57,719 nt of DNA from a virus, in the IMG/VR virus record IMGVR_UViG_3300012138_000001; one strand, given 5' to 3'. The notes beneath the pieces were generated by a model, which made no database searches, was not told the DNA's origin, and saw only the letters and a list, made by a program, of their open reading frames with translations. Positions within the stretch are counted from its first letter, which is position 1. The number at the start of each line of letters is the position of its first letter. A program made the translations under genes and the position numbers. Below, piece after piece: positions 5,759 through 19,458 of the stretch.

Positions 5759-6100
5759 CTGTTCCCCTTTCCTTTCCAATCCTAGCGATACCATCAGTGC
5801 TTCATTAACTAATTCCTGCTCCGCATCCGATATATGCCCCATATAGTTACCTAACCTTTCCACTGAGATAGAGTGTATCTGCTCGCACAATGCGGTAGAC
5901 TTGTGTCTTGCCATCACATCCACATGAGTGGGCAATCTTTTCTTTTTCGGGCTGCTGGTCAGATACACAACTTCGATAACGGGAGAATACAGGTTGCATT
6001 TTTCGTTGCTGACGATGATGGCCGGTCGATCGGCACTTTGTTCGCTGCCGCAGGATAGTTTTTCGCTGTCGTGAATATAGTAGATATCTCCGCGCTTGAT
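5759..6100 (-). CDS. PemK/MazF-family toxin domain, no canonical start and no stop before the Bro-N gene
   Basis: IKRGDIYYI..GSEQSADRPAIIVSN..LPTHVDV..ALCEQIHSISVERL..EALMVSLGLE; AAGGAGG (6110-6116) 9 nt before ATC 6100; in-frame TGA at 6134-6136. Confidence 0.75.
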
Positions 6101-6125
6101 CTTTTTAATCCTCCTTATTCCACTT

Positions 6126-6401
6126 TTAACAATTCATAATCTCATTCAGCGTCACCCGCCTACCGAGAACAATACTGGCGGCCTGCATTGGATTCATGTT
6201 CGTTTTCCGAGCCAACCGCTGTAATTCCACCAGCCGGTAGTTGTTCGGGCTGTCCTGCCGGTCATAATAAGTTTGCTGGCAGAATCCGCAGATTGTCATG
6301 ACTTGCTGTCGTGATAAATGGCTTCGGGAAATATTGGCGTTGATTTCCCCGGCGGCTATGCTTAGCGCCTGTTTTTCTTGATTTGGTTTAATTGCTGGCA
6401 T
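6126..6401 (-). CDS. small putative DNA-binding protein (91 aa), antitoxin candidate by position
   Basis: Stops about 20 nt upstream of the MazF-like frame; HTH-like NYRLVELQRLARKTNMNPMQAASIV. Confidence 0.65.
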   Translation of the reverse strand: MPAIKPNQEKQALSIAAGEINANISRSHLSRQQVMTICGFCQQTYYDRQDSPNNYRLVELQRLARKTNMNPMQAASIVLGRRVTLNEIMNC

Positions 6402-6456
6402 AATGTCACCTCCTTTTTGACAATTGTTGCATTATATTAATTACTGGTTACACTTG

Positions 6457-6485
6457 TTGCTATTTCCTCCAAATTCTCCTATAAT
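6457..6485 (+). promoter_or_regulatory. sigma-A-type promoter TTGCTA-17-TATAAT
   Basis: Hexamers at 6457-6462 and 6480-6485, 50 nt upstream of ATG 6536. Confidence 0.5.
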
Positions 6486-6535
6486 CAAAGTACAGGCACT
6501 GGCATGCCGAGTACAAAAGAAGGGAGAAAATTACG

Positions 6536-6739
6536 ATGAAATCATTTAACGATTTCCGTCAGTCAATCACCCAAGAACATCAGAATGAATGGTCGAGGGA
6601 ATTAAATGCACGGATGCTTCAAATCCAGCTACCCCTCACGGACGAAACCGTTGAGGAATTCTTGTCATTTGTATTGAATTCCAATATTGAAATGACGCTT
6701 AAGATTCTTCGGCAGTATCATGAGTGGCTTTCGGATTAA
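6536..6739 (+). CDS. hypothetical protein (67 aa), plus-strand (same orientation as repressor and integrase)
   Basis: GGGAG RBS 9 nt before ATG; own promoter. Confidence 0.65.
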   Translation: MKSFNDFRQSITQEHQNEWSRELNARMLQIQLPLTDETVEEFLSFVLNSNIEMTLKILRQYHEWLSD

Positions 6740-7058: not shown

Positions 7059-7808
7059 TCAGGCAATAAATTTGTTAACAAAATATTGCTGACCGTATCC
7101 TGTCACCTTAGTTGTCTTACTAATCGTTGTATGACCGTCAGAGTGAGTGATTGCAGTTTCCTTAACTTCGAATAGCTTCATTTCCATACTGCGTTGCGTA
7201 GGGGCATTGTAGTCAGTGCCCTTCCGGCGGATTAAATAACCATTATTTCTTAAATATTCAAATAACCGCTTCTCGCCGGTATCCACACCATTTTGTTTTA
7301 GAATTTTTGCCAGTTCGCCAATCAAGATTGATGTCTTGCTCGTGGCTACCGCATCGGCAAATAGTGCTTTGGGCTTCATTTCGCCAATTAGTTTGTCTTT
7401 GCCGGCAATAATGTTTTGAGCGACAACAAGCGCATTTGCTACAATCTGTTCTGGTGTCAAGTTTTCCTGATTTGCAATATACCCACCATTATTTCTAATT
7501 GATGGCAGTACTTCGCTCGTCACCCAATGCTTGAATCGTTTCGCCGACTCTAGTTTGCTGCTAAGAATAAGGGCATACATTCCGGACTCGTTTATAATTA
7601 CCGCTTTGCTTTTGTAATTCGAACCCGTACCCTGTAATAGGGTGGTGGTTTTATCATCATCATCTACGTGCTGACTTATTGCGTTTTCTGTTTTCGCATA
7701 TCCCAATGCTTTTGCGATGTCCTTTCCCACAAAATATGTTTCGTTATTCAGTTGTACTGTTCGTATTTGCCCGAACTCTTCGCTGTTAAAAATCTGTAAT
7801 TCTTTCAT
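7059..7808 (-). CDS. antirepressor: Bro-N domain + KilAC-like C-terminal domain (249 aa)
   Basis: MKELQIFNSEEFGQIRTVQLNNETYFVGKDIAKALGY...AKRFKHWVTSEVLPSIR; first gene of the leftward operon, divergent from the repressor. Confidence 0.9.
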   Translation of the reverse strand: MKELQIFNSEEFGQIRTVQLNNETYFVGKDIAKALGYAKTENAISQHVDDDDKTTTLLQGTGSNYKSKAVIINESGMYALILSSKLESAKRFKHWVTSEVLPSIRNNGGYIANQENLTPEQIVANALVVAQNIIAGKDKLIGEMKPKALFADAVATSKTSILIGELAKILKQNGVDTGEKRLFEYLRNNGYLIRRKGTDYNAPTQRSMEMKLFEVKETAITHSDGHTTISKTTKVTGYGQQYFVNKFIA

Positions 7809-7842
7809 TTATTACCTCGCTTTCTACTTGCTTTGTAAGTAT

Positions 7843-7871
7843 ATATTACCACTGCGTGAGTGAGATGTCAA
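7843..7871 (-). promoter_or_regulatory. leftward early promoter TTGACA-17-TAATAT
   Basis: Minus-strand TTGACA at 7866-7871 and TAATAT at 7843-7848. Confidence 0.6.
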
Positions 7872-7891
7872 CACTTTTTTTTATTTTTTAC

Positions 7892-7920
7892 TTGCTTAGT
7901 GAGCGTAAGTATGATATATT
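7892..7920 (+). promoter_or_regulatory. rightward repressor promoter TTGCTT-17-TATATT (TG-extended)
   Basis: Hexamers at 7892-7897 and 7915-7920; 20 bp from the divergent promoter. Confidence 0.6.
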
Positions 7921-7942
7921 ATATTTACGAGGAGGTGTTGAT

Positions 7943-8344
7943 TTGAAAGAGCGCATAAAAAAAGTAAGGGAAAGTCTTAATATGAGCCAAGCAGAATTCA
8001 GTAAGGAAATATTGGTCGGTTCGTCCACGGTAGCAATGTGGGAGCTGGGAACAAGGAGTCCCAAAGACATACACATTTCGAAAATATGCGAAAAGTTAAG
8101 TATAAGCGAAGTTTGGTTGCGAACCGGCAAGGGCAATATGAAAAAAGAGCTTTCTATAGAAGAAGAAACATATGGACGCTTCGGGAAAATAATGGAAGTG
8201 GGAAGTCCCATAAAGAAAAACATGGCCACAATGCTATTAAAGATAGTGGAAACACTTCCGGACGAACAATGGGAAAGAATCTACGGGGAATTCAAGGCCT
8301 GCATCGACAGGGTAGAAAGAGTAGAAGAAGAGAGCGAAGATTAA
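7943..8344 (+). CDS. CI-like XRE-family repressor (133 aa, TTG start)
   Basis: GGAGGTG 5 nt before TTG 7943; LNMSQAEFSKEILVGSSTVAMWELGTRSPK HTH; same strand as integrase. Confidence 0.85.
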   Translation: MKERIKKVRESLNMSQAEFSKEILVGSSTVAMWELGTRSPKDIHISKICEKLSISEVWLRTGKGNMKKELSIEEETYGRFGKIMEVGSPIKKNMATMLLKIVETLPDEQWERIYGEFKACIDRVERVEEESED

Positions 8345-8355
8345 TCCTCGCTCTC
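8330..8355. terminator. near-perfect 26-bp palindrome spanning the repressor stop codon (hairpin, weak terminator candidate)
   Basis: GAGAGCGAAGATTAATCCTCGCTCTC; no clear U-tract. Confidence 0.35.
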
Positions 8356-8678
8356 TAAGACACTCCTTATTAAACTAATGAGACTTTTCAGGAATTTTGC
8401 GCTATGTATTTTGTCAATCAATTCATGCAGTTCGCTTTTAAGACTTTCCACGTATACACACCCCTTTCACTGCCAGCAAGCCAGATATTCCTTACAGATT
8501 TGCCGATGTGTATATTATAACTGCACAACAACGTTATGTCAACAGGAAAATAGAACACAGGTTCGACTTGTTTCGACACGCAAAAGTATTTACCACAAAC
8601 CTTAAATTTGCCCCTGCTGCTAATGGAATTTTTCCGGCAAGGGTGCATTTTTATACTCAGGGTCAGGGAGGGACGATA

Positions 8679-9920
8679 ATGGCAAAAGCAAAAAAACTAC
8701 CCAGCGGCTCCTGGAGATGCCAGGCATACAGCCACAGCGAACCGGTTTACAAAAATGGCCAGCCGGTATTGGACGGGAACGGAAAGCAGAAGCAACGGCG
8801 GGTGTATGAATCCTTTACGGCTGGCAGCGCCAAAGAAGCCCAATATATGGCTGCGCAGTTTCAGATGGATAAAGACAAGGTCCCGGCAAAGAAATCGGCC
8901 GCACGCGGTGATATGACGCTTACAGAGGCGATTGATAAGTATATCGACAGCCGTGTCCCGCTGGAACGCTCCCCTACAACCATCCAAGACTATCGGTGTA
9001 TCCAAAAATGCGGCTTCCGCGATTTGATGGACATGCAGTTAAAGGATTTTGATGAAGAAATTTTACAGGAAGCAGTCAACATGGAATCGCAGCGAAAATC
9101 TATTAAAAACGGTATTAGAACTATCTCCGCAAAGCGATTAAGAAATGAGTGGGCTCTTATTGCTGCCGTTTTGAAAAAGTATCGCAAAGAGCTTGTATGT
9201 GAGGTGGAATTGCCTCCAATAAAAGAACGGGTACCGGAACTGTTGCCGGCAAAAACCGTGATAGATATCATTCGTGGTACCGAAATCGAATTAGCCGTAT
9301 TATTAGCCGCATGGTTATCATTTTCTATGTCAGAAGTGCGCGGTTTGACAAAATCAAAATCTATATCAGGGGATTGCATCAGGATCGCAGAGGTTATTGT
9401 TGATGTTTGCGGCAAGCCCATCCGCAAGGACATGGCAAAGAATCAATACCGGAATCGTACCCATCATATTCCACCTTACATTATGCAGTTGATTCATCAG
9501 GTAGATGGTGATATACTTGTACCGATGAGCGGACACACTTTGTACCGCCGGTGGATTCGATTATTGAACGACAATGGCCTACCGCATATGACCTTTCATG
9601 ATCTGCGCCACCTTAGCGCGTCTATAATGGCTCTGCTTCGAATACCCGATAAATATGCGCAAGAAAGGGGAGGTTGGAAATCTGATCAGATAATGAAACG
9701 CGTATATATGCAGACGCTTCCTGACGAACGGAGAAAAGTGGATGCCATGATTGATAATTATTTTGAAAATATAATAAAACCAGAGGTCGGCGAAGTTGAC
9801 CAAAAAAAATATCAAGCGTGGCTTGTCTTGTTTGAAAAAGAAGATTCGGAAGATTCAAAAAATGAATTTTTATTGTTCATGCAACACGAAAAACAACACG
9901 AACCGGGAAATTCAACGTAA
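8679..9920 (+). CDS. int: tyrosine recombinase / phage integrase (413 aa)
   Basis: GGGAGGG before ATG 8679 (MAKAKKLPSGSWRCQAY); C-terminal HDLRHLSAS...GGWKSDQIMKRVY catalytic region. Confidence 0.95.
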   Translation: MAKAKKLPSGSWRCQAYSHSEPVYKNGQPVLDGNGKQKQRRVYESFTAGSAKEAQYMAAQFQMDKDKVPAKKSAARGDMTLTEAIDKYIDSRVPLERSPTTIQDYRCIQKCGFRDLMDMQLKDFDEEILQEAVNMESQRKSIKNGIRTISAKRLRNEWALIAAVLKKYRKELVCEVELPPIKERVPELLPAKTVIDIIRGTEIELAVLLAAWLSFSMSEVRGLTKSKSISGDCIRIAEVIVDVCGKPIRKDMAKNQYRNRTHHIPPYIMQLIHQVDGDILVPMSGHTLYRRWIRLLNDNGLPHMTFHDLRHLSASIMALLRIPDKYAQERGGWKSDQIMKRVYMQTLPDERRKVDAMIDNYFENIIKPEVGEVDQKKYQAWLVLFEKEDSEDSKNEFLLFMQHEKQHEPGNST

Positions 9921-10234
9921 ATACGCCACTTTTAAATAACGGTATACGGGTTAAAAGCCCGTTAATTAGGAAGTTGAAAAACAAAGCAAATTCAACGAAT
10001 GCCCGTACTTAAGCGCTTTGTGGATAACAAAGTACATAATATATACCGTAAAAATAGAACAAAAAATGCATAAATGTAATGCTATGCAACACGAAATGCA
10101 ACACGATAATAGGCAGCCGGACATCTAATACGGTATAGGCGACTACAGATGGTACGCTTTATTAAAAAACCAGATTGTCAAGAGAACCCCCGCTGGAATT
10201 AAAACTGGCGGGGGTAAATTTGTAGCACAGAGTA
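9879..10234. promoter_or_regulatory. attP-like region with clustered arm-type repeats
   Basis: ATGCAACACGAAA at 9879 and 10084; CAACACGA also at 9894 and 10100; AAATTCAACG at 9908 and 9988; ACGGTATA at 9939 and 10130, inverted at 10042. Confidence 0.5.
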
Positions 10235-10783
10235 TTAATATTTGTATCCCATCTTTTCTTCTTTTTTCTCGGCTGCATCGTGATTGTTATATTCTGTCGT
10301 CTCATAGATGTAAAGATCGTGCAGGGCAGTCCCCTGTGCTTTCATGTCAGCATACCTCTTGATCTTGCGGTTCAAGTCCACAATGGCACACTTGATGCAG
10401 CTGGCGCGCTCATATAGCGGGCAAGCCAAATCTCTAAGACAGAGCGGGGCCGCAAACATATTCGCGCTCTCCGTAATCTTCCAGTACATATCCCACAGTC
10501 CATTCCGATATTCCGCCAGAAATGTTTCGACACTATTGACGTTCGGAAACGACGCATTTGATTTCTGGGGATAAATCTCAACCTCGAACAAATCGAACGC
10601 TTCTGATTGCAGGTATTTTCGAATGTTTTCATCCTTGGTGCCTTCCATGCGTGCCTCTCGTTTTTTCCCCTGGATGCCCATGGATAAGGCCTTAACAAAC
10701 GCTGTATTTTCAAATTCTTCAAATGCATACAGATAATTCACGGTATTCTGAATCTGTCTTATGCAGTCGGCTTTATTGACCAT
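10235..10783 (-). CDS. hypothetical protein (182 aa), last gene of the unknown operon
   Basis: Packed co-directional ORF; Cys cluster CLRDLACPLYERASCIKC; followed by a GC-rich hairpin at 10187-10214. Confidence 0.7.
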   Translation of the reverse strand: MVNKADCIRQIQNTVNYLYAFEEFENTAFVKALSMGIQGKKREARMEGTKDENIRKYLQSEAFDLFEVEIYPQKSNASFPNVNSVETFLAEYRNGLWDMYWKITESANMFAAPLCLRDLACPLYERASCIKCAIVDLNRKIKRYADMKAQGTALHDLYIYETTEYNNHDAAEKKEEKMGYKY

Positions 10784-10795
10784 TTTTCTACCTCC

Positions 10796-10996
10796 TTAGA
10801 AATAAGATGTTCGCGGGTTGCCGTCCATCATCTCTTTGTGCGTGCCGCTCTGCATCTCTTTCCATCTCTCGATATGCTTTCTGTTTTCCAGCAACACGTG
10901 CAGATCGTGTTCCGCCTTGGTAAGCCCCTTGGACTCTGACCTGACCAATTCGTCAATAGCCATATCTAATTTTTCGATATATTTCTGCGTGTACAT
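10796..10996 (-). CDS. hypothetical protein (66 aa)
   Basis: Packed co-directional ORF. Confidence 0.65.
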   Translation of the reverse strand: MYTQKYIEKLDMAIDELVRSESKGLTKAEHDLHVLLENRKHIERWKEMQSGTHKEMMDGNPRTSYF

Positions 10997-10999
10997 AGC

Positions 11000-11395
11000 T
11001 TACACCTCCCGGCATCTGCGCAAATGTTCCACTCCGCGAAGGTCGAAGAAATCGGCCATGTTGTTATTCAGGTACAGCGGGATTCTTGTCCGGCCGCGCT
11101 CCGGCAGATCAATCCCGAATTCCTGATCGCCGAACGTGCATTGTGCTGTTTTCCCGCAGCTTGTTGTGATCCTGCAAACAGTTTTGAGCAACGGGATGGC
11201 ATCCGTTTCCCCCGACAATAATATTGTAACTGGGAGATTTTCTCCAGCTTCCGGCAACGGCGACGTTAACACCAAGCAGTATTTTGTGCTTGGTTCCAAG
11301 GCCGTGGGGCCGGTTACAGTGATTTGTAAATTTGTACCGACTACAGCGATAGCAGTTGATACAAGTTTAGTAAAACAATTCTTGCATGCACTCAT
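11000..11395 (-). CDS. hypothetical Cys-containing protein (131 aa)
   Basis: Packed co-directional ORF; MSACKNCFTKLV... Confidence 0.7.
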   Translation of the reverse strand: MSACKNCFTKLVSTAIAVVGTNLQITVTGPTALEPSTKYCLVLTSPLPEAGENLPVTILLSGETDAIPLLKTVCRITTSCGKTAQCTFGDQEFGIDLPERGRTRIPLYLNNNMADFFDLRGVEHLRRCREV

Positions 11396-11409
11396 TTTTA
11401 AATTCTCCT

Positions 11410-11658
11410 TTAAATTTTTTGATTTATTTGTTTAAGTTGCTCGATCATTTCAGCAGTATTTGATGCATTGCGCCTGGTATTTTCCAGATTTTCTTTTGTC
11501 AATTCGAGGGTTCTCATGTTGATCAATAGATTATTCACCGCGACGGTTAGAATGGCAGCAGTCAAAAGAGATCCCCACCAAGCACCTATAGAGCTGCGTA
11601 TAGCAATCTCATTATCGGTAATCGGTTGTTTCTTCGCCTGAAACCACGGTCGGCTCAT
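11410..11658 (-). CDS. hypothetical membrane + coiled-coil protein (82 aa)
   Basis: Hydrophobic IGAWWGSLLTAAILTVAVNNLLI; ATG 11658 chosen (AAGGCGG upstream); 47-nt overlap with 11612..11809. Confidence 0.55.
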   Translation of the reverse strand: MSRPWFQAKKQPITDNEIAIRSSIGAWWGSLLTAAILTVAVNNLLINMRTLELTKENLENTRRNASNTAEMIEQLKQINQKI

Positions 11659-11809
11659 CCACAACACCGCCTTTGCCCATGAATCCATTCACGGCTTTTT
11701 CAATACTTACACTTGCGCCGTTTATGATCCCAATGAATTTCTTTCTTTTCTCCGGATTCTCAATTAGTGTCCCGGCGTATAGCAACCCTAAAACTTGAAG
11801 CAGTGGCAT
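11612..11809 (-). CDS. hypothetical protein (65 aa), hydrophobic N-terminus
   Basis: MPLLQVLGLLYAGTLI...; packed ORF. Confidence 0.55.
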   Translation of the reverse strand: MPLLQVLGLLYAGTLIENPEKRKKFIGIINGASVSIEKAVNGFMGKGGVVDEPTVVSGEETTDYR

Positions 11810-11892
11810 TTATTCACCTCCTAAAAAACAGAGCGACATTACGCCGCTCTGTGAAGCCTTTACGACGGCAAAACGAATTATTGTTTTAGATA

Positions 11893-12459
11893 TTAGCACC
11901 AGTTGCAATCATCATCCCGGCCTCTATCGCGTCCACCAAATTCACGGAAGCGATCAAAGCAGTTCATTTGTGGCTGTACGCAAGAATCGACCGTTTTTAC
12001 AAAATGCGGCACTGCGTTTGGTTTACGCTCGATCTCCTTTTCCAGACAACCGAATTTAGCGTTCAGATTCTCCTGAAGCTCTGCAAACATACCGCTTACA
12101 AACAACTGATTCTTCTGCTCCTGGATAACCATGTCTTTTTCAAGCAGCTTTCTTTCCAGATTCTTTTCGTAAATTTTGTTTTGTTCGATAATCCCGGCAT
12201 CCCTGGATGTCACAACATCCTTGTCGATCTGACAATTGCTTACGCAGCCACAGGGATTAACCAACCGGCTCCGAACTTCATCGAAGTCGCGATCATGATT
12301 ATGTCCTTCACCACAACGGCCGCCAAACAACCCGCCGCCAGAAAAACAAGCGAAAAACAGCAAAATGATGATCAGAAATCCCAGACCACCGCCGCCGCCG
12401 AGTCCCCAACCGAGGCCACCGCCGCCGATGGAATCGTTCTCAATACTATAACTTGCCAT
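11893..12459 (-). CDS. glycine-rich membrane protein with Cys-rich coiled-coil C-terminal domain (188 aa)
   Basis: GGGGLGWGLGGGGGLGFLIIILLFFACFSGGGLFGG, then 10 Cys, ending DDDCNWC. Confidence 0.75.
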   Translation of the reverse strand: MASYSIENDSIGGGGLGWGLGGGGGLGFLIIILLFFACFSGGGLFGGRCGEGHNHDRDFDEVRSRLVNPCGCVSNCQIDKDVVTSRDAGIIEQNKIYEKNLERKLLEKDMVIQEQKNQLFVSGMFAELQENLNAKFGCLEKEIERKPNAVPHFVKTVDSCVQPQMNCFDRFREFGGRDRGRDDDCNWC

Positions 12460-12517
12460 GTTTTTTATCTCCTTTCATGATTTTTATGTTAAAGGCAGAA
12501 GCCTATAAACATTGATT

Positions 12518-12922
12518 TTATTTCATCCTATCTAGCTTTTCGCGATACGAATTTACCGGAGCACCCGCCTGCCGAGTGGGGAAAGACTGGTTTGCGCTGA
12601 AATTAGATGGCGCTTGTCTATATTGCGATTCCTGGAATCGATCTTTTATCTTGTTAAGACTTAGGCCGTTGCTCGATAAAATGCCATTAACGGCTATTTT
12701 GACGGCGGGATTTCGGTCCAATATGGTCGATATCCTGTTGACCATAGGCGCACCACCAACGGCATCTATGGCCCTGTACAATCCCTCTTCGCTACTCCCG
12801 AACTGCTTTGCGCCCTGAATGGCCTGATCAAGCATCTGCTTGCTTTCGGGATTTGACTGTATCTTTGCCGCTGCGTTTTTGCTCACCTTGCTCACTGTTC
12901 TCACCAATGAATTTAGATCCAT
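12518..12922 (-). CDS. hypothetical protein (134 aa)
   Basis: GGAGG 6 nt before ATG 12922; overlaps the end of 12828..13250 by 95 nt. Confidence 0.65.
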   Translation of the reverse strand: MDLNSLVRTVSKVSKNAAAKIQSNPESKQMLDQAIQGAKQFGSSEEGLYRAIDAVGGAPMVNRISTILDRNPAVKIAVNGILSSNGLSLNKIKDRFQESQYRQAPSNFSANQSFPTRQAGAPVNSYREKLDRMK

Positions 12923-13250
12923 CTTTTTCCTCCATCTTTGTTATTTTGTCAGAAAGTTTTTGAATAGTAGCCAGAAGAGTCGCATTGATTTCCTGTTGCT
13001 GTATTGCTTGTTCTTGCAACAACTCTTCTGCTGATTTCGGCGGTATGATGTCGCCCAGCTCCACAAGACGGTTATAGAACCCCTCTGCTTTCGATATGGC
13101 TTCATTTAACGTTGATTCGAGTTCATTGCAGTACTCAAGTGTATGGCCTATCAGGACCTGCTGGTTTGATTGAAATTCCAGAATGTCCCTTCCGGCGATA
13201 ACGCGTGTTGGATAACTGTTTATGGTTCCATTTTCAAAAGAATAATTCAT
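12828..13250 (-). CDS. hypothetical coiled-coil protein (140 aa)
   Basis: ATGA start/stop overlap with the upstream small ORF. Confidence 0.7.
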   Translation of the reverse strand: MNYSFENGTINSYPTRVIAGRDILEFQSNQQVLIGHTLEYCNELESTLNEAISKAEGFYNRLVELGDIIPPKSAEELLQEQAIQQQEINATLLATIQKLSDKITKMEEKDGSKFIGENSEQGEQKRSGKDTVKSRKQADA

Positions 13251-13411
13251 TCATGCCCCTCCTGTAATCCCATAGATATTTCTCCAATCAATGCCAAAAC
13301 ATTTAGATTGTCCGCGCAATCAATAGATAAATAGAAATCAAACATATCCTCCGCCTCTGCTTCTTTGTATCCGATTCGCATCATCCGGTCAACAAACTGC
13401 TTTTCACTCAT
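13247..13411 (-). CDS. hypothetical small acidic protein (54 aa)
   Basis: MSEKQFVDRMMRIGYKEAEAEDMF...; ATGA overlaps at both ends; below the track cutoff. Confidence 0.55.
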   Translation of the reverse strand: MSEKQFVDRMMRIGYKEAEAEDMFDFYLSIDCADNLNVLALIGEISMGLQEGHE

Positions 13412-13659
13412 ATAATTTTCCGTACCTCCGCCATAAAGTCACCCAATGGCACGCCGTAGCTTCTGGCAACACTCTCGCCGCACTGAACGCCGCTTTGCAG
13501 CATTAATTTGAAGCGTTCCCGTTGTGCGTCGCCCATCCCATTTACGAAGAGCCTGGCGCAGTTCCCGGCGGTGACTGAATGGCTGTCGGCTTCTTTCTTT
13601 TTGCCGGCCGGTGCGTTCTTGGATGCCGGTGGCTGAATTAAATTACTTACCATCTCCAA
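13408..13659 (-). CDS. hypothetical protein (83 aa)
   Basis: Packed co-directional ORF. Confidence 0.65.
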   Translation of the reverse strand: MEMVSNLIQPPASKNAPAGKKKEADSHSVTAGNCARLFVNGMGDAQRERFKLMLQSGVQCGESVARSYGVPLGDFMAEVRKII

Positions 13660-13825
13660 ACCTCCCGTAGCTCATTGATAAAACAATGCACGCAGCTTCA
13701 ATAAAATCCTTGCTGAAATGCTTCTTTTCTTTGGCTTCTTTGATTGCGTCAAGCGTCATTTCTGTCAAATCTGTCAAGGCTTCGTCTAATTTATCAATCA
13801 CGCTGAAACCTCCTGTCACGTTCAT
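13643..13825 (-). CDS. hypothetical protein (60 aa), first gene after the terminator
   Basis: First ORF downstream of the 13916-13951 terminator. Confidence 0.6.
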   Translation of the reverse strand: MNVTGGFSVIDKLDEALTDLTEMTLDAIKEAKEKKHFSKDFIEAACIVLSMSYGRFGDGK

Positions 13826-13915
13826 TTCTTATATGCTAATTTTAAGGGATTTTGGGGAAAGAAAAGCATTTGAATAATGCCTATAAAACTTAGAAAAAGT
13901 GTTGGGAAAATGTAA

Positions 13916-13951
13916 TAAAAAAAGAGACTCCATATAATAAAGAAGTCTCTT
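13916..13951 (-). terminator. rho-independent terminator
   Basis: 8-bp stem (13944-13951 / 13922-13929) followed by a T run on the minus strand. Confidence 0.7.
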
Positions 13952-13961
13952 GTGTTTAAAT

Positions 13962-14306
13962 CTATCTTGAGTTTTTCTTCCCGGCACCCACCGGATACAG
14001 CACAACAGGCATACCGTCCGGCTGATTCTTGAAAAAAGCAGAATTTCGATAATCCAGGGTGTACCCCATTTCAAGAGCAAACTTGGCGCAATCGGGATAT
14101 CTTTCAACATGCGCTGTTATCTTGCCGACAAAGAGCGGATATCTGCTTTCGTCACAATCAGTATTCTTCAATTCGTCAAGACTTTCCGAAATGCAATCCA
14201 GAATATTTTTCAATACCAGATTTTCTAATTCCAATTTTTCTGTCCTTGTCATATCATTCCTTTCTGCCCCGGATACCGCCGGGGCCGGTATATGCTTTTT
14301 ATCCAA
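13962..14306 (-). CDS. hypothetical protein (114 aa)
   Basis: Overlaps the upstream ORF by 8 nt; followed by a terminator. Confidence 0.7.
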   Translation of the reverse strand: MDKKHIPAPAVSGAERNDMTRTEKLELENLVLKNILDCISESLDELKNTDCDESRYPLFVGKITAHVERYPDCAKFALEMGYTLDYRNSAFFKNQPDGMPVVLYPVGAGKKNSR

Positions 14307-14502
14307 AAATGATTAGTACTAACATGAATGTCATAACCATTCCCATCATAATCAGCGCAAACAGATAGTCACTATTAAAATGCGATTCTCGCTCGTACCG
14401 CTGTAATCTCGATGCCCTGAGGAATGCGTCTTTGTCCTTCTCTGTTCTCTTAATCGTATTCAAGTGATTGTAAAACCCTTGGCGGTTTGGATTCTTTTTC
14501 AT
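14299..14502 (-). CDS. small tail-anchored membrane protein (67 aa)
   Basis: Basic N-terminus, C-terminal YLFALIMMGMVMTFMLVLIIFG. Confidence 0.65.
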   Translation of the reverse strand: MKKNPNRQGFYNHLNTIKRTEKDKDAFLRASRLQRYERESHFNSDYLFALIMMGMVMTFMLVLIIFG

Positions 14503-14513
14503 GTGATATTCTC

Positions 14514-14627
14514 CTATTCTTCAATCAAAGTTTTTACTACTGTATAAATGCTCCGGCAATCTTTTTCGCTGTCAACTTTTTCAAGCATTTCGATGATTAA
14601 CTCCTTGTATTTCTCACGCTCTGTCAT
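14514..14627 (-). CDS. micro-protein (37 aa), MTERE paralogue 2
   Basis: MTEREKYKELIIEMLEKV...; ATGA overlap with paralogue 1. Confidence 0.5.
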   Translation of the reverse strand: MTEREKYKELIIEMLEKVDSEKDCRSIYTVVKTLIEE

Positions 14628-14755
14628 GATTTTTTACCCCTTTCACATGCGCACACGCTTTCCACAAGCGCATATACGCGTTTTATAAAAGTGTCGCTGC
14701 CTAATCTTTCCAGATAAACTACAATTGATTTGATGTATACTTCGCGTTCTGTCAT
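14624..14755 (-). CDS. micro-protein (43 aa), MTERE paralogue 1
   Basis: MTEREVYIKSIVVYLERL...; ATGA overlap with the stop of 14752..15720. Confidence 0.5.
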   Translation of the reverse strand: MTEREVYIKSIVVYLERLGSDTFIKRVYALVESVCACERGKKS

Positions 14756-15720
14756 GATAATATCTCCTTCCGGTTCTGCTTATTTGCTTTGTTAACTTTT
14801 TTCTTCGACTTCGCCTTTTTTGTTCTTTTTCTCTGGTTTGTATGGCGATCATATTTGATTATGCTCCGGCTCTGAGTAAATCCATGTGCCTTTAAATACT
14901 CGCACAGGAATACCATTCCCTCGTAAGTCCAAAACGTTAGCGTCGTAACCTGTTTTTCGCCGTCGCGCTTGCTGAAAGTGCCATCCTTAAGTATCACATA
15001 GCTTTCCTTGCCCATCTTCTTGTTGATATCCCATCCACCATTGTGTGGGCAGGTAACTCCCTGTGCGTACAAATATTTGTTAAGTATGCGCGCGCTCATT
15101 CCGAATGCTTCGGCAATGGAAGTTATTGTGTAGATATTTTTAGAGACGGAACAATTTGTTGCTTCGAGGTAATAGGCCGGGTCAGGCTCGACGATGATTT
15201 CCTTCGGCTTGCCAGTCGCAAGTTCCCTCACTTCTTTCTTCAACGCTACAATGTCACTATCGTGCTCCTGAAGCTTGTCCAGCATCAGGCGAAGTCCGTC
15301 GTATATATTGTTTGCCGGCAGCTGTGTTTGTGTTGTCGCGATTGCTGCTTGCTGTGGCTGCGGGTTAAAATAGTTGTCCACAAGCTGGCGTTGGATTTTC
15401 CATGAGAGTTCATCGGTGAAGGACTTTACTATCATGAGGTAGCCGGATTGGGTGATTAAAGTAATTCCCTTTGGTGGAATCTTAAAACCGCTTATTTCCT
15501 CATTATTTTTCAATGTACGAATTTCGTCCATTGAATTTCTTTTGATAATAAAGTAATCCAAGCCCTCCGTGAAATGCACTGTATTGGAATTGAAATTTCT
15601 TCTTGCGGTTCCTGTTTTCCTATTGTGAAATCTGTCGATATCGTTAAATGTAATAACTCTTTTTCCATTACATTCTTTTGTGGATATTTCTGCATTATTA
15701 ATTTTTACTATTCCTTGCAT
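14752..15720 (-). CDS. ORF6N-domain + KilAC-domain antirepressor-like protein (322 aa) with Lys-rich tail
   Basis: KRVITFNDIDRFHNRKTGTARRNFNSN..FTEGLDYF..ITQSGYLMIVKSF; C-terminal ITSIAEAFGMSARILNKYL...; AAAGGAG RBS. Confidence 0.85.
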   Translation of the reverse strand: MQGIVKINNAEISTKECNGKRVITFNDIDRFHNRKTGTARRNFNSNTVHFTEGLDYFIIKRNSMDEIRTLKNNEEISGFKIPPKGITLITQSGYLMIVKSFTDELSWKIQRQLVDNYFNPQPQQAAIATTQTQLPANNIYDGLRLMLDKLQEHDSDIVALKKEVRELATGKPKEIIVEPDPAYYLEATNCSVSKNIYTITSIAEAFGMSARILNKYLYAQGVTCPHNGGWDINKKMGKESYVILKDGTFSKRDGEKQVTTLTFWTYEGMVFLCEYLKAHGFTQSRSIIKYDRHTNQRKRTKKAKSKKKVNKANKQNRKEILS

Positions 15721-15746
15721 AAAAATTAACTCCTTTCAAATTGTTA

Positions 15747-15775
15747 TTGAAGGAGACTTCGCTCTGTGGTATACT
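15747..15775 (+). promoter_or_regulatory. plus-strand promoter TTGAAG-17-TATACT (TG-extended) facing a terminator about 30 nt away
   Basis: Hexamers at 15747-15752 and 15770-15775; flanked by the CTCTGT/ACAGAG inverted repeat. Confidence 0.4.
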
Positions 15776-15805
15776 AATTTTTACAGAGGAACTCCTTTGT
15801 GTCAT

Positions 15806-15848
15806 AAAACAGTCCGTTATCCGACCAAAGATAACTACGGGCTGTTTT
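15806..15848. terminator. bidirectional terminator (12-bp stem)
   Basis: AAAACAGTCCGT / ACGGGCTGTTTT with T/A runs on both sides. Confidence 0.6.
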
Positions 15849-16050
15849 ATTTTACTTCACTTTCTTCAATCCATTTTTCAATATCTGTCTTATAAAACCT
15901 CCAATCTTTTCCTAATTTAAAAGCCTTAATCTTTCCAGCTTTCACAAATCTTCTCACCGTTTGTTCACTAACTTGCAAAAATTCTGCCAATTGTTGAAGT
16001 GTAACAACGTCCGGTAAATTTTCAAGACCCAACCATATCACTCCTTTCAT
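15847..16050 (-). CDS. excisionase-family (MerR-like) HTH DNA-binding protein
   Basis: VTLQQLAEFLQVSEQTVRRFVKAGKIKAFKLGKDWRFYKTDIEKWI; true start may be TTG 16029 (AAAGGAG 9 nt upstream). Confidence 0.75.
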   Translation of the reverse strand: MKGVIWLGLENLPDVVTLQQLAEFLQVSEQTVRRFVKAGKIKAFKLGKDWRFYKTDIEKWIEESEVK

Positions 16051-16121
16051 ATTTAGATCATATCATAACTATACAATACTATTCATTCATTGTCAATACT
16101 TTTTTGAAATTATTTTTCCGA

Positions 16122-16150
16122 TTGCATTTTCCCACAATCTACCATATAAT
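16122..16150 (+). promoter_or_regulatory. promoter TTGCAT-17-TATAAT for the lipoprotein gene
   Basis: Hexamers at 16122-16127 and 16145-16150. Confidence 0.6.
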
Positions 16151-16181
16151 AATTTCATCAAAAGAAAAGGGGATATAGATC

Positions 16182-16826
16182 ATGAAGAGAGTGGGAATTA
16201 TTTTCGCATTAGCGTTGATTGCCGGAACTACTACGGCCTGCGGAGGAAGTTCTCCGGCCGCGAGTACGGCAGCGCAAACGACGACCGCAGAAACAGAAGC
16301 AGAAACAGAAATTGAGACGGAAACCGAAACAGTGGCAGAGACTACTGCGAAGCCGGAGACTACTGCGGGAAAAGATGAAGAAACATTAAAAAGTGAACAA
16401 CTGGCCATTATAACTAGCGTCGGCATTGTTGAACAGAGTACAGAGTATAAATCTCTCTACCCGGACATGGTTCAATGGATACTCGAAAACAAATCAGGAA
16501 ATGTTATTAAAAATTATACGGTTTCTGTTTTGGCCTATGATGAAAATGGATATCCGGTCAAAGTTGAGGGGCAATACGACTATAAACCCGGATTTGAAAA
16601 ATCAGTGCTCGCAGAAGCGGTAAATGTTCAGCCGGACACAACTCACGGAGATGATTATGGCTATGGCCTGGGTACGAATCATGGAATCGCTTATGCAATT
16701 GTTCTTGTGAAAGAATTGGAATTTTATGATTCCGATACTTGGAAGAACCCCTATTATGATATTTGGATTAAAAAGTATAAAGAAAAACCAATTTCGCTCG
16801 ATGATTTGAATGCTATGTATAATTAG
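16182..16826 (+). CDS. lipoprotein (214 aa) with Thr/Glu/Ala-rich linker
   Basis: MKRVGIIFALALIAGTTTAC signal + lipobox-like Cys20; own promoter and terminator. Confidence 0.85.
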   Translation: MKRVGIIFALALIAGTTTACGGSSPAASTAAQTTTAETEAETEIETETETVAETTAKPETTAGKDEETLKSEQLAIITSVGIVEQSTEYKSLYPDMVQWILENKSGNVIKNYTVSVLAYDENGYPVKVEGQYDYKPGFEKSVLAEAVNVQPDTTHGDDYGYGLGTNHGIAYAIVLVKELEFYDSDTWKNPYYDIWIKKYKEKPISLDDLNAMYN

Positions 16827-16838
16827 CACGTCTTTTTT

Positions 16839-16866
16839 AAAGCCAGTGATTAAACTCACTGGCTTT
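16839..16866. terminator. bidirectional hairpin between convergent genes
   Basis: AAAGCCAGTGA / TCACTGGCTTT, 11-bp stem. Confidence 0.65.
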
Positions 16867-16884
16867 AAATTGAGTCTTATGTTT

Positions 16885-17538
16885 CTATCGTCTGTCTAAT
16901 GACAGGGATAGTTCTGGCGTTAATGTCTGATATGTTTTCTGATATTCGACTGTTGCTAAATCCTCCAACACATAAACATCCTCGCCAGTGATATGCACAT
17001 TTGTCCAATATTCCCCTTCATAATATACAATTGTTCCATCCGATAGACCTTTTAAGAGTTTGGATAATTCAATCGATCCGCACCGATACCACGTCCCCCC
17101 ATAAGGCGGCGCGCCAACGGATGAAGCGGTTTCTGCTGGACTGGCAGTATGGGCTTTCCAATAATACCCGCCATAATAGACCACGGTTCCGTTTGCCTTT
17201 CCTTTATTTATCGCATCCTGCCCGTCAGCATTGCATATTTCCCATTTAACGCCCATTTCCGAATATAATGGCGGCGGTGTGTTCGGGTCTTTCCATACGC
17301 CGTTGCTTCCTATTTGATATTCACCAATAGTGGTATCATGCGCCATTTTTCCATCATCGTAAAAATAAAACCATCCCATCGTAAAAAGCACCCATCCCGT
17401 GAGCAATTCGCCGTCTGCATTGCGGTAATACGAATCAGAACCAATGTCCTCCCATCCGGCAAACGCATTCATAACTGGTGTTGATAATAAAACAAATGCC
17501 AAAATAAAAATAGTTCCTAATTTCTTCATACCTCGCAT
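16885..17538 (-). CDS. secreted protein with CW_binding_1-type repeats and duplicated GT(V/I)VYY(G/E)G(Y/E)YW module (217 aa)
   Basis: Signal peptide MRGMKKLGTIFILAFVLLSTPVMNAFA; YYRNADGELLTGWV..WFYFYDDGKM. Confidence 0.8.
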   Translation of the reverse strand: MRGMKKLGTIFILAFVLLSTPVMNAFAGWEDIGSDSYYRNADGELLTGWVLFTMGWFYFYDDGKMAHDTTIGEYQIGSNGVWKDPNTPPPLYSEMGVKWEICNADGQDAINKGKANGTVVYYGGYYWKAHTASPAETASSVGAPPYGGTWYRCGSIELSKLLKGLSDGTIVYYEGEYWTNVHITGEDVYVLEDLATVEYQKTYQTLTPELSLSLDRR

Positions 17539-17667
17539 TCTCCTTTTCTTTTTTTCTAATTATAACAGATTGCGGAAAAATTGTCGATAGGTGGGAGACG
17601 GGAAAGCGATCCCGTCTTTTTCTTCTTTCTCAATGCAAAAAAAGTTTAAAATATCCGTAAAAACCTC

Positions 17668-17697
17668 TTGACAAACCACCGCTATCGATGGTATAAT
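17668..17697 (+). promoter_or_regulatory. near-consensus promoter TTGACA-18-TGgTATAAT
   Basis: TTGACA 17668-17673, TATAAT 17692-17697, 33 nt upstream of ATG 17730. Confidence 0.7.
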
Positions 17698-17729
17698 AAG
17701 GTATAAGATAAAGAGCGGAGGGAACAGCG

Positions 17730-18203
17730 ATGGCAAAATATACAATCAATCACACATGTGGACATAAAAGCGAAGTTGAGCTTTTTGGAAAGAACGATGG
17801 AAGAAAAAGAAAAATTGCGTATCTGGAAACCACTACATGCGCAACGTGTCTCGCAGAAGAAAAAGCCCAGGCAATCGGCGGCTGTTGGGTAGAAATGTCT
17901 TATAAGGAATACAAAGAAAACTATAGCTATTGTGAGAAAAGGAACTACGATCCCAAAACCAAAACTATCCTGGTCTTGGTAGCTCCTAAAACAAATAAGC
18001 AACTGGCCGAAGAGGAGATGAAAGAGCTGGGCATCCCTGAAAAGACAATCGAACACGCTTTCGATACGGGAAGCGTGCAATACAAAGCTATTTTCCAAAA
18101 CGCCATGGAGAAAACAAAAGGTCAAGAGCTTCCCAAGGAACAGCAAAAGGTCAAAGAAATGGCCGAAACAATAATCAGAGTATTCGAAAAATACAACTTA
18201 TAA
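17730..18203 (+). CDS. hypothetical protein (157 aa) with N-terminal HTCGH...CATC Cys/His motif
   Basis: GGAGGGAACAGCG before ATG; first gene of the plus-strand cassette. Confidence 0.75.
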   Translation: MAKYTINHTCGHKSEVELFGKNDGRKRKIAYLETTTCATCLAEEKAQAIGGCWVEMSYKEYKENYSYCEKRNYDPKTKTILVLVAPKTNKQLAEEEMKELGIPEKTIEHAFDTGSVQYKAIFQNAMEKTKGQELPKEQQKVKEMAETIIRVFEKYNL

Positions 18204-18212
18204 GGAGGAAAG

Positions 18213-19210: not shown

Positions 19211-19248
19211 TAGCGGGAACCGGACATCTGGAACCCGCTATCTTTTTA
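19211..19248 (+). terminator. rho-independent terminator ending the plus-strand cassette
   Basis: TAGCGGG...CCCGCTA stem followed by TCTTTTT. Confidence 0.6.
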
Positions 19249-19458
19249 TAAAACTCTTATAATCTTCGATTTTACTTTTTTAGACAATATATCCGCCTTG
19301 GATTTGGATATGTTCATGGCGAAAGTGATTTCTATGATACTTTTATTCCGGCTCCGAAGGTTGAAAAACTCCATTTCCTCCGACGTGAAATTGCAAAGAG
19401 CACGGAACCGCTCAATCTCCGGCGTTGTAAAATCGCATATTTTAAGCTGCTGGGCCAT
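19246..19458 (-). CDS. small sigma-70 region-4-like / HTH protein (70 aa)
   Basis: ITFAMNISKSKADILSKKVKSKI; packed after the HNH gene. Confidence 0.6.
   Translation of the reverse strand: MAQQLKICDFTTPEIERFRALCNFTSEEMEFFNLRSRNKSIIEITFAMNISKSKADILSKKVKSKIIRVL

What the first reader, a model, noticed from the sequence alone, without database searches (positions are those of the whole stretch)
10235..13825. About 3.6 kb operon of around 12 uncharacterised small proteins wedged against attP: best candidate for a novel lysogen-expressed system
The unit starts after a clean terminator (13916-13951) and runs to a GC-rich hairpin at 10187-10214. It holds about 12 tightly packed minus-strand ORFs of 54-188 aa.

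Several pairs are translationally coupled by ATGA overlaps (13408/13411, 13247/13250). Two pairs have unusually long overlaps (12828-12922 and 11612-11658).

The products include:
- predicted membrane proteins (11410..11658, 11612..11809, 11893..12459);
- coiled-coil proteins (12828..13250);
- Cys-rich proteins (11000..11395, the C-terminus of 11893..12459, and 10235..10783).

I recognise no structural, lysis, replication or regulatory motif in any of them. The location, between the lysis/moron island and attP-int, is the classic hotspot for defence, superinfection-exclusion or host-conversion cargo in temperate phages.
Basis: inference. Interest (0 to 1): 0.7.

Follow-up and report, generated by a model that had tools for sequence, protein, structure and literature searches.

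The report
Mobile phage gene cassette, function unknown
This is a real, strongly conserved block of eleven small phage genes with no match in the Pfam, PHROGs, NCBIfam or PADLOC libraries, which moves as a unit between very different phages of Clostridia-type bacteria, including a tiny phage of the phi29 type (whose known members are strictly lytic), so it is a new accessory module but not specifically a "lysogen" system.

Summary
Eleven tightly packed minus-strand genes (A–K, 13801→10235) lie between two terminator hairpins. All are under strong purifying selection (dN/dS 0–0.2). None matches Pfam, PHROGs, NCBIfam or PADLOC.

The core D-E-F-G-H-I-(J)-K is collinear in at least 10 phage backbones:
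- after the lysis genes;
- next to three kinds of integrase;
- inside a head-gene module;
- between holin and endolysin of a complete 17.4-kb phi29-like podovirus.

In a near-isogenic relative, D–I is replaced as one unit by a divergent allele, while the flanks A–C and J–K stay. (J)K swaps independently. A hairpin between F and G is conserved everywhere.

In five or more backbones, a small LuxR/sigma-region-4-like HTH gene, a terminator and an extended −10 precede the block. The window's copy of that gene lies 5.4 kb away.

F and G are predicted N-out/C-in membrane anchors. The rest lack signal peptides. K has a ferritin-like fold without ExxH iron ligands; K occurs alone in C. perfringens phages. 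The type-2 allele carries a BclA-CTD-like protein in place of I.

Verdict: a new, mobile, co-adapted accessory cassette. Function is unknown. My best guess is a membrane-anchored phage-conflict (exclusion-type) complex; the main rival is lysis control. "Lysogen-expressed" is only partly supported.

The parts
13915..13951 (-). Intrinsic-terminator hairpin (10-bp stem, U7) that insulates the block from the upstream HTH_17/anti-repressor operon
   Evidence: dG -12.7, z -3.5; sequence. The equivalent terminator sits directly upstream of the block in L010, L012, L015, L020, L055, L066 and L073.
13962..14306 (-). u1, a small ORF of unknown function. The DNA conserved with relatives runs from the K stop codon up to 14264, inside this ORF.
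   Evidence: q10235-14264 is contiguous in L002, L003 and L006; dN/dS 0.10-0.16
13643..13801 (-). A, 52 aa, soluble. Present only in the window-type backbone and L010.
   Evidence: dN/dS 0-0.08
13408..13653 (-). B, 81 aa, soluble. Present only in the window-type backbone and L010.
   Evidence: dN/dS 0.07-0.18
13247..13411 (-). C, 54 aa, acidic. ATGA overlaps on both sides.
   Evidence: dN/dS 0.05-0.22
12828..13250 (-). D, 140 aa. First gene of the conserved core: YPTRVISG N-terminal motif, a helical middle and a low-complexity tail.
   Evidence: Present in every backbone where this part of the block is on the contig.
12518..12922 (-). E, 134 aa, basic. Overlaps D by 95 nt. Not called by the gene caller in L001, but real.
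   Evidence: omega about 0-0.02 in the overlap
11893..12459 (-). F, 188 aa. Gly-rich N-terminus, one strong transmembrane helix, a coiled-coil-like region and a Cys-rich C-terminus. Predicted N-out/C-in.
11828..11852 (-). Terminator/attenuator-like hairpin between F and G, conserved in position in five backbones with different stem sequences
   Evidence: z -3.6 to -4.8 in all five
11612..11809 (-). G, 65 aa. 15-residue N-terminal hydrophobic anchor followed by a basic cluster.
11410..11658 (-). H, 82 aa. One moderate transmembrane segment and a C-terminal helical region. Overlaps G by 47 nt.
11000..11395 (-). I, 131 aa, beta-rich, with conserved Cys (C4, C7, C40, C128). The most constrained member: 91% amino-acid identity but 74.5% nucleotide identity to the podovirus copy.
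10796..10996 (-). J, 66 aa, helical. Travels with K1 (window-type backbone, L007, L015).
   Evidence: dN = 0 in five comparisons
10235..10783 (-). K, 182 aa. Ferritin-like four-helix-bundle fold without ExxH di-iron ligands. The family also occurs alone in C. perfringens phages.
10186..10215 (-). G+C-rich terminator-like hairpin closing the block
   Evidence: dG -16.2, z -3.0
19246..19458 (-). 70-aa LuxR/sigma-70-region-4-like HTH gene. Its homologs lie directly upstream of the block in L010, L015, L020, L055 and L073. Candidate regulator of the block (inference).
   Evidence: (L020 copy: GerE E = 7.9e-10)
9880..10110 (.). Candidate attP region: three exact TCGTGTTGCA copies next to the integrase 3' end (integrase 8679-9920, + strand)
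   Evidence: Inference only; no attB was available.

Best explanation
**Shown.** The region is one mobile, co-adapted accessory cassette of Clostridia-type phages.
- The core is D-E-F | hairpin | G-H-I, followed by an exchangeable 3' part: J-K1 or K2.
- It is usually preceded by a small LuxR/sigma-r4-like HTH gene, a terminator and an extended -10 element.
- It is maintained by strong purifying selection.
- It moves between unrelated phage backbones and exists in at least two allelic types that are swapped as whole units.

**Inferred anatomy.**
- F and G are anchored in the cytoplasmic membrane, N-out/C-in. H is a third membrane component.
- D, E, I, J and K have no signal peptides and would assemble on the cytoplasmic face.
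- The F-G hairpin would give more D-E-F than G-K product.

**Inferred function (weakest step).** The complex acts at the membrane of infected cells, and in temperate phages probably also of lysogenic cells, as a phage-conflict device. The most likely form is a superinfection-exclusion-type block on competing phages. It is not part of virion assembly or basic lysis.
For: **One unit, not a random string of ORFs**
- The core is collinear in at least 10 backbones.
- The D/E and G/H gene overlaps and the F-G hairpin recur across the backbones examined.

**Co-adaptation**
- L007 has A/B 92-100% and J/K 95-100% identical to the window. It carries a divergent D-E-F-G-H-I allele: F2 of 226 aa and a BclA-CTD-like I2.
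- L055 combines type-1 D-I with K2.

**Constraint**
- dN/dS is 0-0.2.

**Autonomy**
- There is a terminator upstream and one downstream. TGnTATAAT-like elements follow the terminator T-run in L012, L020, L055, L066 and L015.
- The HTH gene is adjacent in five backbones.

**Accessory, conflict-type setting**
- The insertion sites vary.
- Weak defence-like neighbours occur: FRG, Abi_alpha-like (weak) and a PH-glycine-zipper protein.

**Membrane topology**
- No K/R precedes the F and G hydrophobic segments; 1-4 K/R follow them, in all homologs.
Against: - There is no expression or phenotype data of any kind.
- No PADLOC model matches, and no enzymatic or effector domain is present.
- In the phi29-like podovirus the block has no regulator and no promoter of its own. 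It lies between holin and endolysin at the head of what looks like the late operon. That timing suits lysis control better than exclusion.
- In about half of the backbones the block directly follows the lysis genes.
- The window's own upstream region has no convincing sigma-70 promoter.
- Allele swapping is also typical of lysis and receptor-binding modules.
Confidence: 0.33

Rival explanations
1. Lysis or egress control. F, G and H are holin-, antiholin- or XhlA/BhlA-like membrane proteins, and the soluble partners tune the timing or extent of holin-dependent membrane damage at the end of infection.
For: - The block lies between the r1t-type holin and the NlpC/P60 endolysin in the podovirus.
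- It directly follows the holin and endolysin genes in L010, L015, L019, L020 and L073.
- H has the BhlA-like layout of a transmembrane segment plus a charged helical tail. F has the layout of a transmembrane segment plus a coiled coil.
- The function would be useful to lytic and temperate phages alike.
Against: - There are no holin, XhlA or BhlA Pfam or PHROG hits at E <= 0.01.
- In the window the block is 7 kb from the lysis genes and terminator-insulated.
- In L055 it lies in the head module, and in L063 it is far from the lysis genes.
- Its own regulator and promoter are unusual for lysis genes.
- Five soluble proteins, some Cys-rich, have no precedent in lysis of Gram-positive hosts.
Confidence: 0.22
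2. Lysogenic conversion of the spore or cell surface. The cassette supplies coat- or exosporium-like proteins (Cys-rich proteins, BclA-CTD/C1q-like trimers, a ferritin-fold protein) under a GerE-like regulator in sporulating lysogens.
For: - I2 matches BclA_C (Pfam E = 3.5e-5) and the F-BclA C-terminal domain 9H38 (E = 1.1e-6).
- L020 carries an extra C1q-domain protein after K (26.2 bits, above the cut-off).
- The L020 regulator matches GerE (E = 7.9e-10).
- None of the soluble proteins has a signal peptide, as is true of coat and exosporium proteins made in the mother cell.
- The hosts are Clostridia-like.
Against: - The GerE Pfam family is the general LuxR-type HTH. BclA-CTD-like domains are equally typical of phage fibre tips (phrog_30509).
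- The window's own I protein shows no homology to I2 (hhalign probability 0.1).
- Presence in a phi29-type podovirus with no integrase fits poorly.
- No sporulation-sigma promoter was recognised by eye; no formal scan was run.
Confidence: 0.1
3. Virion-associated accessory proteins, such as decoration proteins, fibres or ejection proteins, plus their assembly factors.
For: - The cassette sits within late or structural operons in L013 and L055.
- TNF/C1q-like I2 resembles fibre tips.
- The best fold hit for I, though very weak, is a phage capsid spike (E = 0.085).
- Allelic swapping is typical of receptor-binding modules.
Against: - One module is unlikely to dock onto podovirus, siphovirus and myovirus particles alike.
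- F, G and H are membrane-anchored.
- In temperate phages the block is terminator-insulated from the structural operon and lies next to attP.
- All the proteins are small.
Confidence: 0.07

Closest known systems
Morons of temperate phages (lambda bor/lom, HK97-type morons; the P22 immI/sieA region)
   Same: - An autonomous transcription unit with a terminator on each side and, in most backbones, its own -10 element.
- Inserted between otherwise conserved phage modules.
- In the window and three other temperate backbones it lies between the late genes and attP-int.
   Different: - 7-11 genes rather than 1-2.
- It has a linked regulator and an internal attenuator.
- The six-gene core is swapped as a co-adapted allele.
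- It also occurs in a phi29-type podovirus that has no integrase.
- No sequence relation to any described moron.
Superinfection-exclusion membrane proteins (T4 Imm/Sp, P22 SieA, lactococcal Sie2009, S. thermophilus Ltp)
   Same: Small phage-encoded membrane-anchored proteins encoded outside the essential modules, with a postulated action at the cytoplasmic membrane.
   Different: - The known examples are one- or two-protein systems; here there are seven collinear partners, most of them cytoplasmic.
- No homology.
- No functional test. The comparison rests on my own knowledge of those systems.
Lysis-cassette accessory proteins (PBSX XhlA/XhlB, BhlA/UviB holin-like peptides, Rz/Rz1 spanins)
   Same: - Adjacency to holin and endolysin in many backbones.
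- The architecture of an N-terminal transmembrane segment plus a coiled coil (F, H).
   Different: - No profile match.
- G carries no consistent lipobox (inspected in G only).
- The endolysins carry choline-binding/CW_binding-type domains, typical of monoderm hosts.
- The block can sit far from the lysis genes.
Ferritin/bacterioferritin/Dps superfamily (for K only)
   Same: - Four-helix bundle with a long B-C crossover.
- All top-50 Foldseek PDB hits are ferritin, Bfr or Dps (TM-score 0.43-0.67).
- The BFVD hits include phage Dps-like proteins.
   Different: - There is no ExxH motif anywhere in K.
- The residues conserved across the family are K41, R42, D64, R139 and H168, not di-iron ligands.
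- No sequence-level match to Pfam or PDB.
BclA C-terminal domain / C1q-TNF-like trimers (exosporium nap, the F-BclA tip of F-ENA, collagen-like phage fibre tips)
   Same: The type-2 allele (L007, L015) carries a stand-alone BclA-CTD-like protein in the I position. L020 adds a C1q-domain protein after K.
   Different: - The window's I protein is not detectably related to it.
- There is no collagen stalk and no signal peptide or targeting region.
phi29 p16.7 and p1 (membrane organisers of phage DNA replication)
   Same: F shares the layout of a transmembrane segment, a coiled coil and a C-terminal domain, and occurs in a phi29-like genome.
   Different: - No sequence similarity.
- The cassette also occurs in phages that do not use protein-primed replication.
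- The resemblance is from memory only.

Membership tests
Known anti-phage defence systems (PADLOC-DB v2) | At least one protein matches a defence-system profile | tested here: not met
   there are no hits except a spurious Cas13b match at E = 0.013 on the coiled-coil-like part of D.
Moron / lysogenic-conversion cassette | A self-contained transcription unit (own promoter and terminator) inserted between conserved phage modules | tested here: met
   - Terminators lie on both sides.
- Extended -10 elements directly follow the upstream terminator in L012, L020, L055, L066 and L015. The window's own promoter is unclear.
- Insertion sites vary.
Moron / lysogenic-conversion cassette | Expressed from the repressed prophage and confers a phenotype on the lysogen | not testable with these tools
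   No transcriptome, proteome or strain is available. Presence in a phi29-type podovirus without an integrase shows that lysogeny is not required for the module to be kept.
Holin / lysis-cassette membrane proteins | Profile match to a holin, XhlA or BhlA family | tested here: not met
   The only hit is one member against a PHROG holin family at E = 0.049.
Holin / lysis-cassette membrane proteins | Encoded next to the endolysin and co-transcribed with it | tested here: inconclusive
   Adjacent to the lysis genes in L010, L013, L015, L019, L020 and L073. Not adjacent in the window (7 kb away, terminator-insulated), L055 (head module) or L063.
Spanins (Rz/Rz1 type) | An inner-membrane coiled-coil protein plus an outer-membrane lipoprotein partner, in a diderm host | tested here: not met
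   - G carries no consistent lipobox (inspection).
- The endolysins carry choline-binding or CW_binding repeats, typical of monoderm Firmicutes.
Ferritin-like di-iron proteins (for K) | Four-helix-bundle ferritin topology | tested here: met
   The AF2 model has pLDDT 80.7. The top 50 Foldseek PDB hits are all ferritin, Bfr or Dps (E about 1e-2, TM-score 0.43-0.67). The BFVD top hit has E = 5e-5.
Ferritin-like di-iron proteins (for K) | E / ExxH / E / ExxH metal ligands | tested here: not met
   There is no ExxH in the K sequence. The invariant residues across 39 family members are K41, R42 and R139, with D64 and H168 nearly so.
BclA-CTD / C1q-like domain (for the I position) | Profile match to BclA_C or C1q | tested here: inconclusive
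   - Met for the type-2 allele: Pfam BclA_C E = 3.5e-5 (below the gathering score), PDB 9H38 E = 1.1e-6, phrog_30509 E = 2.8e-7.
- Not met for the window's I: no Pfam or PDB hit, and hhalign against I2 gives probability 0.1.

The most novel reading that the evidence does not exclude
D-K, with its linked HTH regulator, is a previously undescribed kind of multi-protein phage system. It would be a membrane-anchored complex built from six co-adapted small proteins plus a ferritin-fold partner. It exists in interchangeable specificity alleles and is carried by temperate phages and by a phi29-type podovirus lacking any integrase. It would mediate a new mechanism of phage-phage exclusion, or of control over the host membrane at the end of infection.
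Probability: 0.4. Interest if true: 0.75.

Novelty: new variant of a known kind. Interest (0 to 1): 0.58.

Why it matters
Multi-gene cargo made entirely of unknown small proteins is usually dismissed as 'hypothetical'. Here the comparative evidence shows one functional unit:
- strict collinearity in at least 10 backbones;
- whole-cassette allele replacement;
- conserved overlaps and a conserved internal hairpin;
- a linked regulator.

A 17-kb podovirus spends 15% of its genome on it. That makes it a well-defined target for discovering a new phage function in Clostridia-type hosts, whether exclusion, lysis control or host conversion. It also adds several new protein families, including a metal-site-less ferritin-fold family shared with cultivable C. 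perfringens phages, in which it could be tested genetically.

Tried and rejected
**Searches that found nothing**
- Pfam, PHROGs, PADLOC and NCBIfam on all window ORFs and on 39 orthologs: nothing usable.
- megablast of the region and tblastn of F, I, K and K2 against GenBank phages: no match.
- Pattern scans of 185,579 GTDB species genomes with the K and I profiles: no relatives. The host therefore stays unidentified. Endolysin and K relatives point to Clostridia.
- Profile searches of D, I and K against PDB sequences: nothing.
- Foldseek on the I model (pLDDT 69): no credible match.
- Rfam on 9800-16200: nothing.

**Ideas rejected**
- K as a true ferritin or Dps: rejected, because it has no ExxH ligands.
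- Spanin idea: rejected, because G carries no consistent lipobox and the lysins are of the monoderm type.
- I1 and I2 as homologs: not supported.
- D-I in phiCP26F: absent; only K is there.

**Retraction**
- I first read L033 as a close relative lacking the block. This was wrong. The same 21,033-bp contig carries it further downstream (L063). I therefore have no presence/absence polymorphism and cannot claim the block is dispensable.

**Other**
- The integrase query found only the same two relatives.
- A possible D-to-E frameshift was noted but not pursued. E is in the +1 frame relative to D in all five backbones, which is within what chance allows.

Full report
**What the window is**

The window carries a 123-bp direct repeat at its two ends, so it is a circularly assembled, complete phage genome of about 57.6 kb. 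It matches the Logan contig SRR6448558_5990.

Genes run mostly on the minus strand. Along the window (the minus-strand genes are read from high to low coordinates) they are:
- the structural genes and the lysis genes, with the endolysin at 21187-22575 (Glucosaminidase + Amidase_3 + choline-binding repeats);
- a NUMOD4 homing endonuclease (19513-20295);
- a 70-aa HTH gene (19246-19458);
- a plus-strand moron island (about 16.2-18.9 kb);
- an HTH_17 gene behind a near-consensus promoter (16096-16068);
- an ORF6N+ANT anti-repressor (14752-15720);
- small ORFs, and then the block in question.

A tyrosine integrase (8679-9920, + strand) and an XRE repressor (7943-8344, + strand) converge on the block from the other side. 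The early genes continue on the minus strand below 7808. Endolysin and portal relatives are phages of Firmicutes; the best endolysin match is 60% identical, to a Ruminococcus phage.

**Check of the observation**

I name the genes A-K.
- The gene caller used for L001, and the homologs elsewhere, indicate shorter starts for A (GTG 13801, GGAGG Shine-Dalgarno (ribosome-binding) site), B (13653) and H (11658).
- The caller skipped E, but E is real. It has orthologs in all backbones with a conserved C-terminal S-Y-[KR]-x-[KR]-L motif. Its frame is under purifying selection even inside the 95-nt overlap with D.
- Against five relatives of 76-99% nucleotide identity, every ORF has dN/dS of 0.00-0.22 at dS of 0.03-1.3. 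These are eleven real, constrained genes.
- A third, terminator-like hairpin lies between F and G (11852-11828).
- In relatives, homology runs unbroken from the K stop codon (10232-10235) to 14264. The integrase module between about 8575 and 10232 is replaced in L002, L003 and L006.
- Three exact TCGTGTTGCA copies at 9880-10106 add to this. An attP between the integrase and the block is therefore plausible, though not demonstrated.

**No known family**

None of the eleven proteins gives a significant hit in Pfam, PHROGs, PADLOC or NCBIfam. The same holds for 39 orthologs scanned one by one, apart from the type-2 I protein discussed below.
- F has 30 relatives among 5.8 billion protein clusters, I has 19 and K has 42. 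All are from metagenomes and carry no functional name (two are labelled only 'hypothetical protein').
- GenBank phages have no F, I or K1.
- Pattern scans of GTDB species genomes found nothing.

**The decisive evidence is comparative**

The order D-E-F-G-H-I-(J)-K recurs in at least ten different backbones:
- L010/L011: a 55-kb temperate phage with contractile-tail baseplate genes. The block follows Amidase_2 and lies upstream of a different tyrosine integrase.
- L012: at a prophage end, next to host glycosidase genes.
- L013/L014: a 17.4-kb phi29-like podovirus with protein-primed DNA polymerase B, Gp16 ATPase, phi29 major capsid protein and connector, and imperfect inverted terminal repeats. 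The block lies between the r1t-type holin and the NlpC/P60 endolysin.
- L015/L016: after the holin and a PG_binding_1 lysin.
- L019: after a holin.
- L020: an SPP1-like siphovirus, after a Peptidase_M23 lysin and a holin.
- L021/L068 and L066/L067: next to large serine recombinases.
- L055: inside a head module, between the MuF-like minor capsid protein and the scaffold.
- L063: a relative of the window phage with a different arrangement.

The D/E overlap (4 of the 5 backbones examined; L010 has a 37-nt gap), the G/H overlap (all 5) and the F-G hairpin recur across these backbones. The hairpin stems differ in sequence but fold equally well, with z from -3.6 to -4.8.

**Co-adapted alleles**

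L007 belongs to the window's own phage group: A and B are 92-100% identical and J and K are 95-100% identical. Between those flanks it carries a divergent D-E-F-G-H-I set like that of L015. F2 is 226 aa, and I is replaced by a 138-aa BclA-CTD-like protein.

Conversely, L055 combines a type-1 D-I (88-99% identical to the window) with K2 instead of J-K1. K1 and K2 belong to one family.

Within type 1, I is exceptionally constrained: 91% amino-acid identity at 74.5% nucleotide identity between the window and the podovirus, where D is 48% and F 59% identical.

Whole-unit replacement indicates that D-I work together, probably in physical contact. (J)K is a separable partner.

**A linked regulator and its own signals**

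In L010, L015, L020, L055 and L073 a 70-84-aa LuxR/sigma-70-region-4-like HTH gene lies immediately upstream. It is followed by a terminator, and its T-run abuts an (extended) -10 element:
- TGCTATAAT in L012;
- TGCTACAAT in L020;
- TGTGATAAT in L055;
- TGTTATAAT in L066.

The L020 copy matches GerE at E = 7.9e-10, and the L010 copy matches Sigma70_r4 at E = 3e-5.

The window has the same gene at 19246-19458, now separated from the block by the moron island and the HTH_17/ANT operon. In the window itself I see no convincing sigma-70 promoter between the terminator and A. In the podovirus, D follows the holin stop codon directly, with neither regulator nor terminator.

**What the proteins look like**

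- F has a strong transmembrane helix preceded by a Gly-rich segment with no K/R and followed directly by R/K. G has a 15-residue N-terminal hydrophobic stretch followed by a basic cluster. By the positive-inside rule, both are N-out/C-in (inference). H has one moderate transmembrane segment.
- None of the soluble proteins has a signal peptide (by inspection).
- The F C-terminus and I carry conserved cysteines.
- K folds with confidence (pLDDT 80.7) into a ferritin-like bundle. It has no ExxH motif. The family invariants are K41, R42 and R139, plus D64 and H168.
- The K family is rare: 43 clusters among 1.84 billion representatives. It does include gp37 of the cultivated C. perfringens siphophages phiCP26F and phiCP39-O and their relatives. 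There it stands without D-I, in the region between an anti-repressor gene and the Erf/SSB/primase genes. An Anaerofustis protein is also a member.
- The type-2 I protein matches the F-BclA C-terminal domain (PDB 9H38; identified in PMC12357932) at E = 1.1e-6, and collagen-like tail-fibre tips. It is not detectably related to the window's I.

**Interpretation**

Solid conclusions:
- This is a single, mobile, co-adapted accessory cassette with new protein families.
- Several of its products are membrane-anchored.
- It is not tied to lysogeny.

Not solid: what it does.

I favour a conflict-type function at the membrane, exclusion of competing phages (confidence about 0.33). The grounds are the autonomous, regulated, terminator-bounded architecture, the variable insertion sites, the neighbouring defence-like cargo and the allele swapping.

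The main rival is control of lysis (0.22). It is favoured by the position inside or right after lysis cassettes, and especially by the podovirus. It is disfavoured by the head-module and attP-side locations and by the insulation from late transcription.

Spore-surface conversion (0.10) and a virion-accessory role (0.07) are not excluded.

The specific 'lysogen-expressed defence' reading is untested, and it cannot be the whole story.

Noticed in passing
window 1-123 and 57597-57719: A 123-bp direct terminal repeat. The window is a circular assembly of a complete phage genome of about 57.6 kb.
   Followed up: yes
window 19246-19458 (-): A 70-aa LuxR/sigma-r4-like HTH gene right after the lysis genes and the homing endonuclease. 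Its homologs directly precede the D-K cassette in five other backbones, so it may be the cassette's displaced regulator.
   Followed up: partly
window 19513-20295 (-): A NUMOD4/NUMOD1 (I-HmuI-like) homing endonuclease gene inserted between the lysis genes and the HTH gene.
   Followed up: no
window 16182-18918 (+) and 16885-17538 (-): An island of opposite-strand genes between the late genes and the HTH_17/ANT operon. It holds a DUF5780 protein, three or four unknown ORFs and a choline-binding-repeat protein, and looks like separate moron cargo.
   Followed up: no
window 7059-7808 (-) and 14752-15720 (-): Two different anti-repressor-type genes in one phage (Bro-N+ANT and ORF6N+ANT), on either side of the integrase/repressor module. 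The second sits behind a near-consensus promoter at 16096-16068 and an HTH_17 gene.
   Followed up: no
window 9880-10106: Three exact copies of TCGTGTTGCA on the minus strand within 227 bp at the integrase 3' end (five exact copies in the whole window). These are candidate arm-type integrase sites of attP.
   Followed up: partly
window about 8575-10232, compared with L002, L003 and L006: The integrase module is exchanged among 88-91% identical relatives, with one breakpoint exactly at the K stop codon.
   Followed up: partly
L010 9171-9261; L073 5496-5586; L066 2452-2536; L019 6008-6085; L020 5510-5595: A structured leader of about 80-90 nt upstream of D. It contains a hairpin (10 of 17 pairs show compensatory changes) and a CACACC/CACCCC element complementary to D's GGGTGTG-type Shine-Dalgarno sequence. 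It may control D translation. It is absent in the window, where C precedes D.
   Followed up: partly
L055 3994-11055: The whole unit (HTH gene, terminator, D-I, K2) is inserted in a head-morphogenesis operon, between Phage_min_cap2 and the scaffold protein. A terminator therefore sits in the middle of the structural genes.
   Followed up: partly
L017 (phiCP26F) 7742-8498; L018 (CS266P1) 5787-6594: In cultivated Clostridium phages the K-family gene stands alone. In both it is preceded by a gene of about 75 aa that overlaps its start by 8 nt. This resembles the J-K pairing in the window, though no J homology is detectable.
   Followed up: partly
window 12828-12922 and the equivalents in L010, L012, L013 and L015: E lies in the +1 frame relative to D in all five backbones examined and overlaps D's low-complexity tail in four of them. 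This could be translational coupling or a frameshift product.
   Followed up: no
L020 8958-9530; L012 6506-7579; L010 12072-12470; L021 2790-4034: The genes just downstream of the cassette differ in every backbone: a C1q-domain protein, an FRG-domain protein, a PH-glycine-zipper protein and a Cu_amine_oxidN1 protein. The same insertion site appears to collect other cargo.
   Followed up: no
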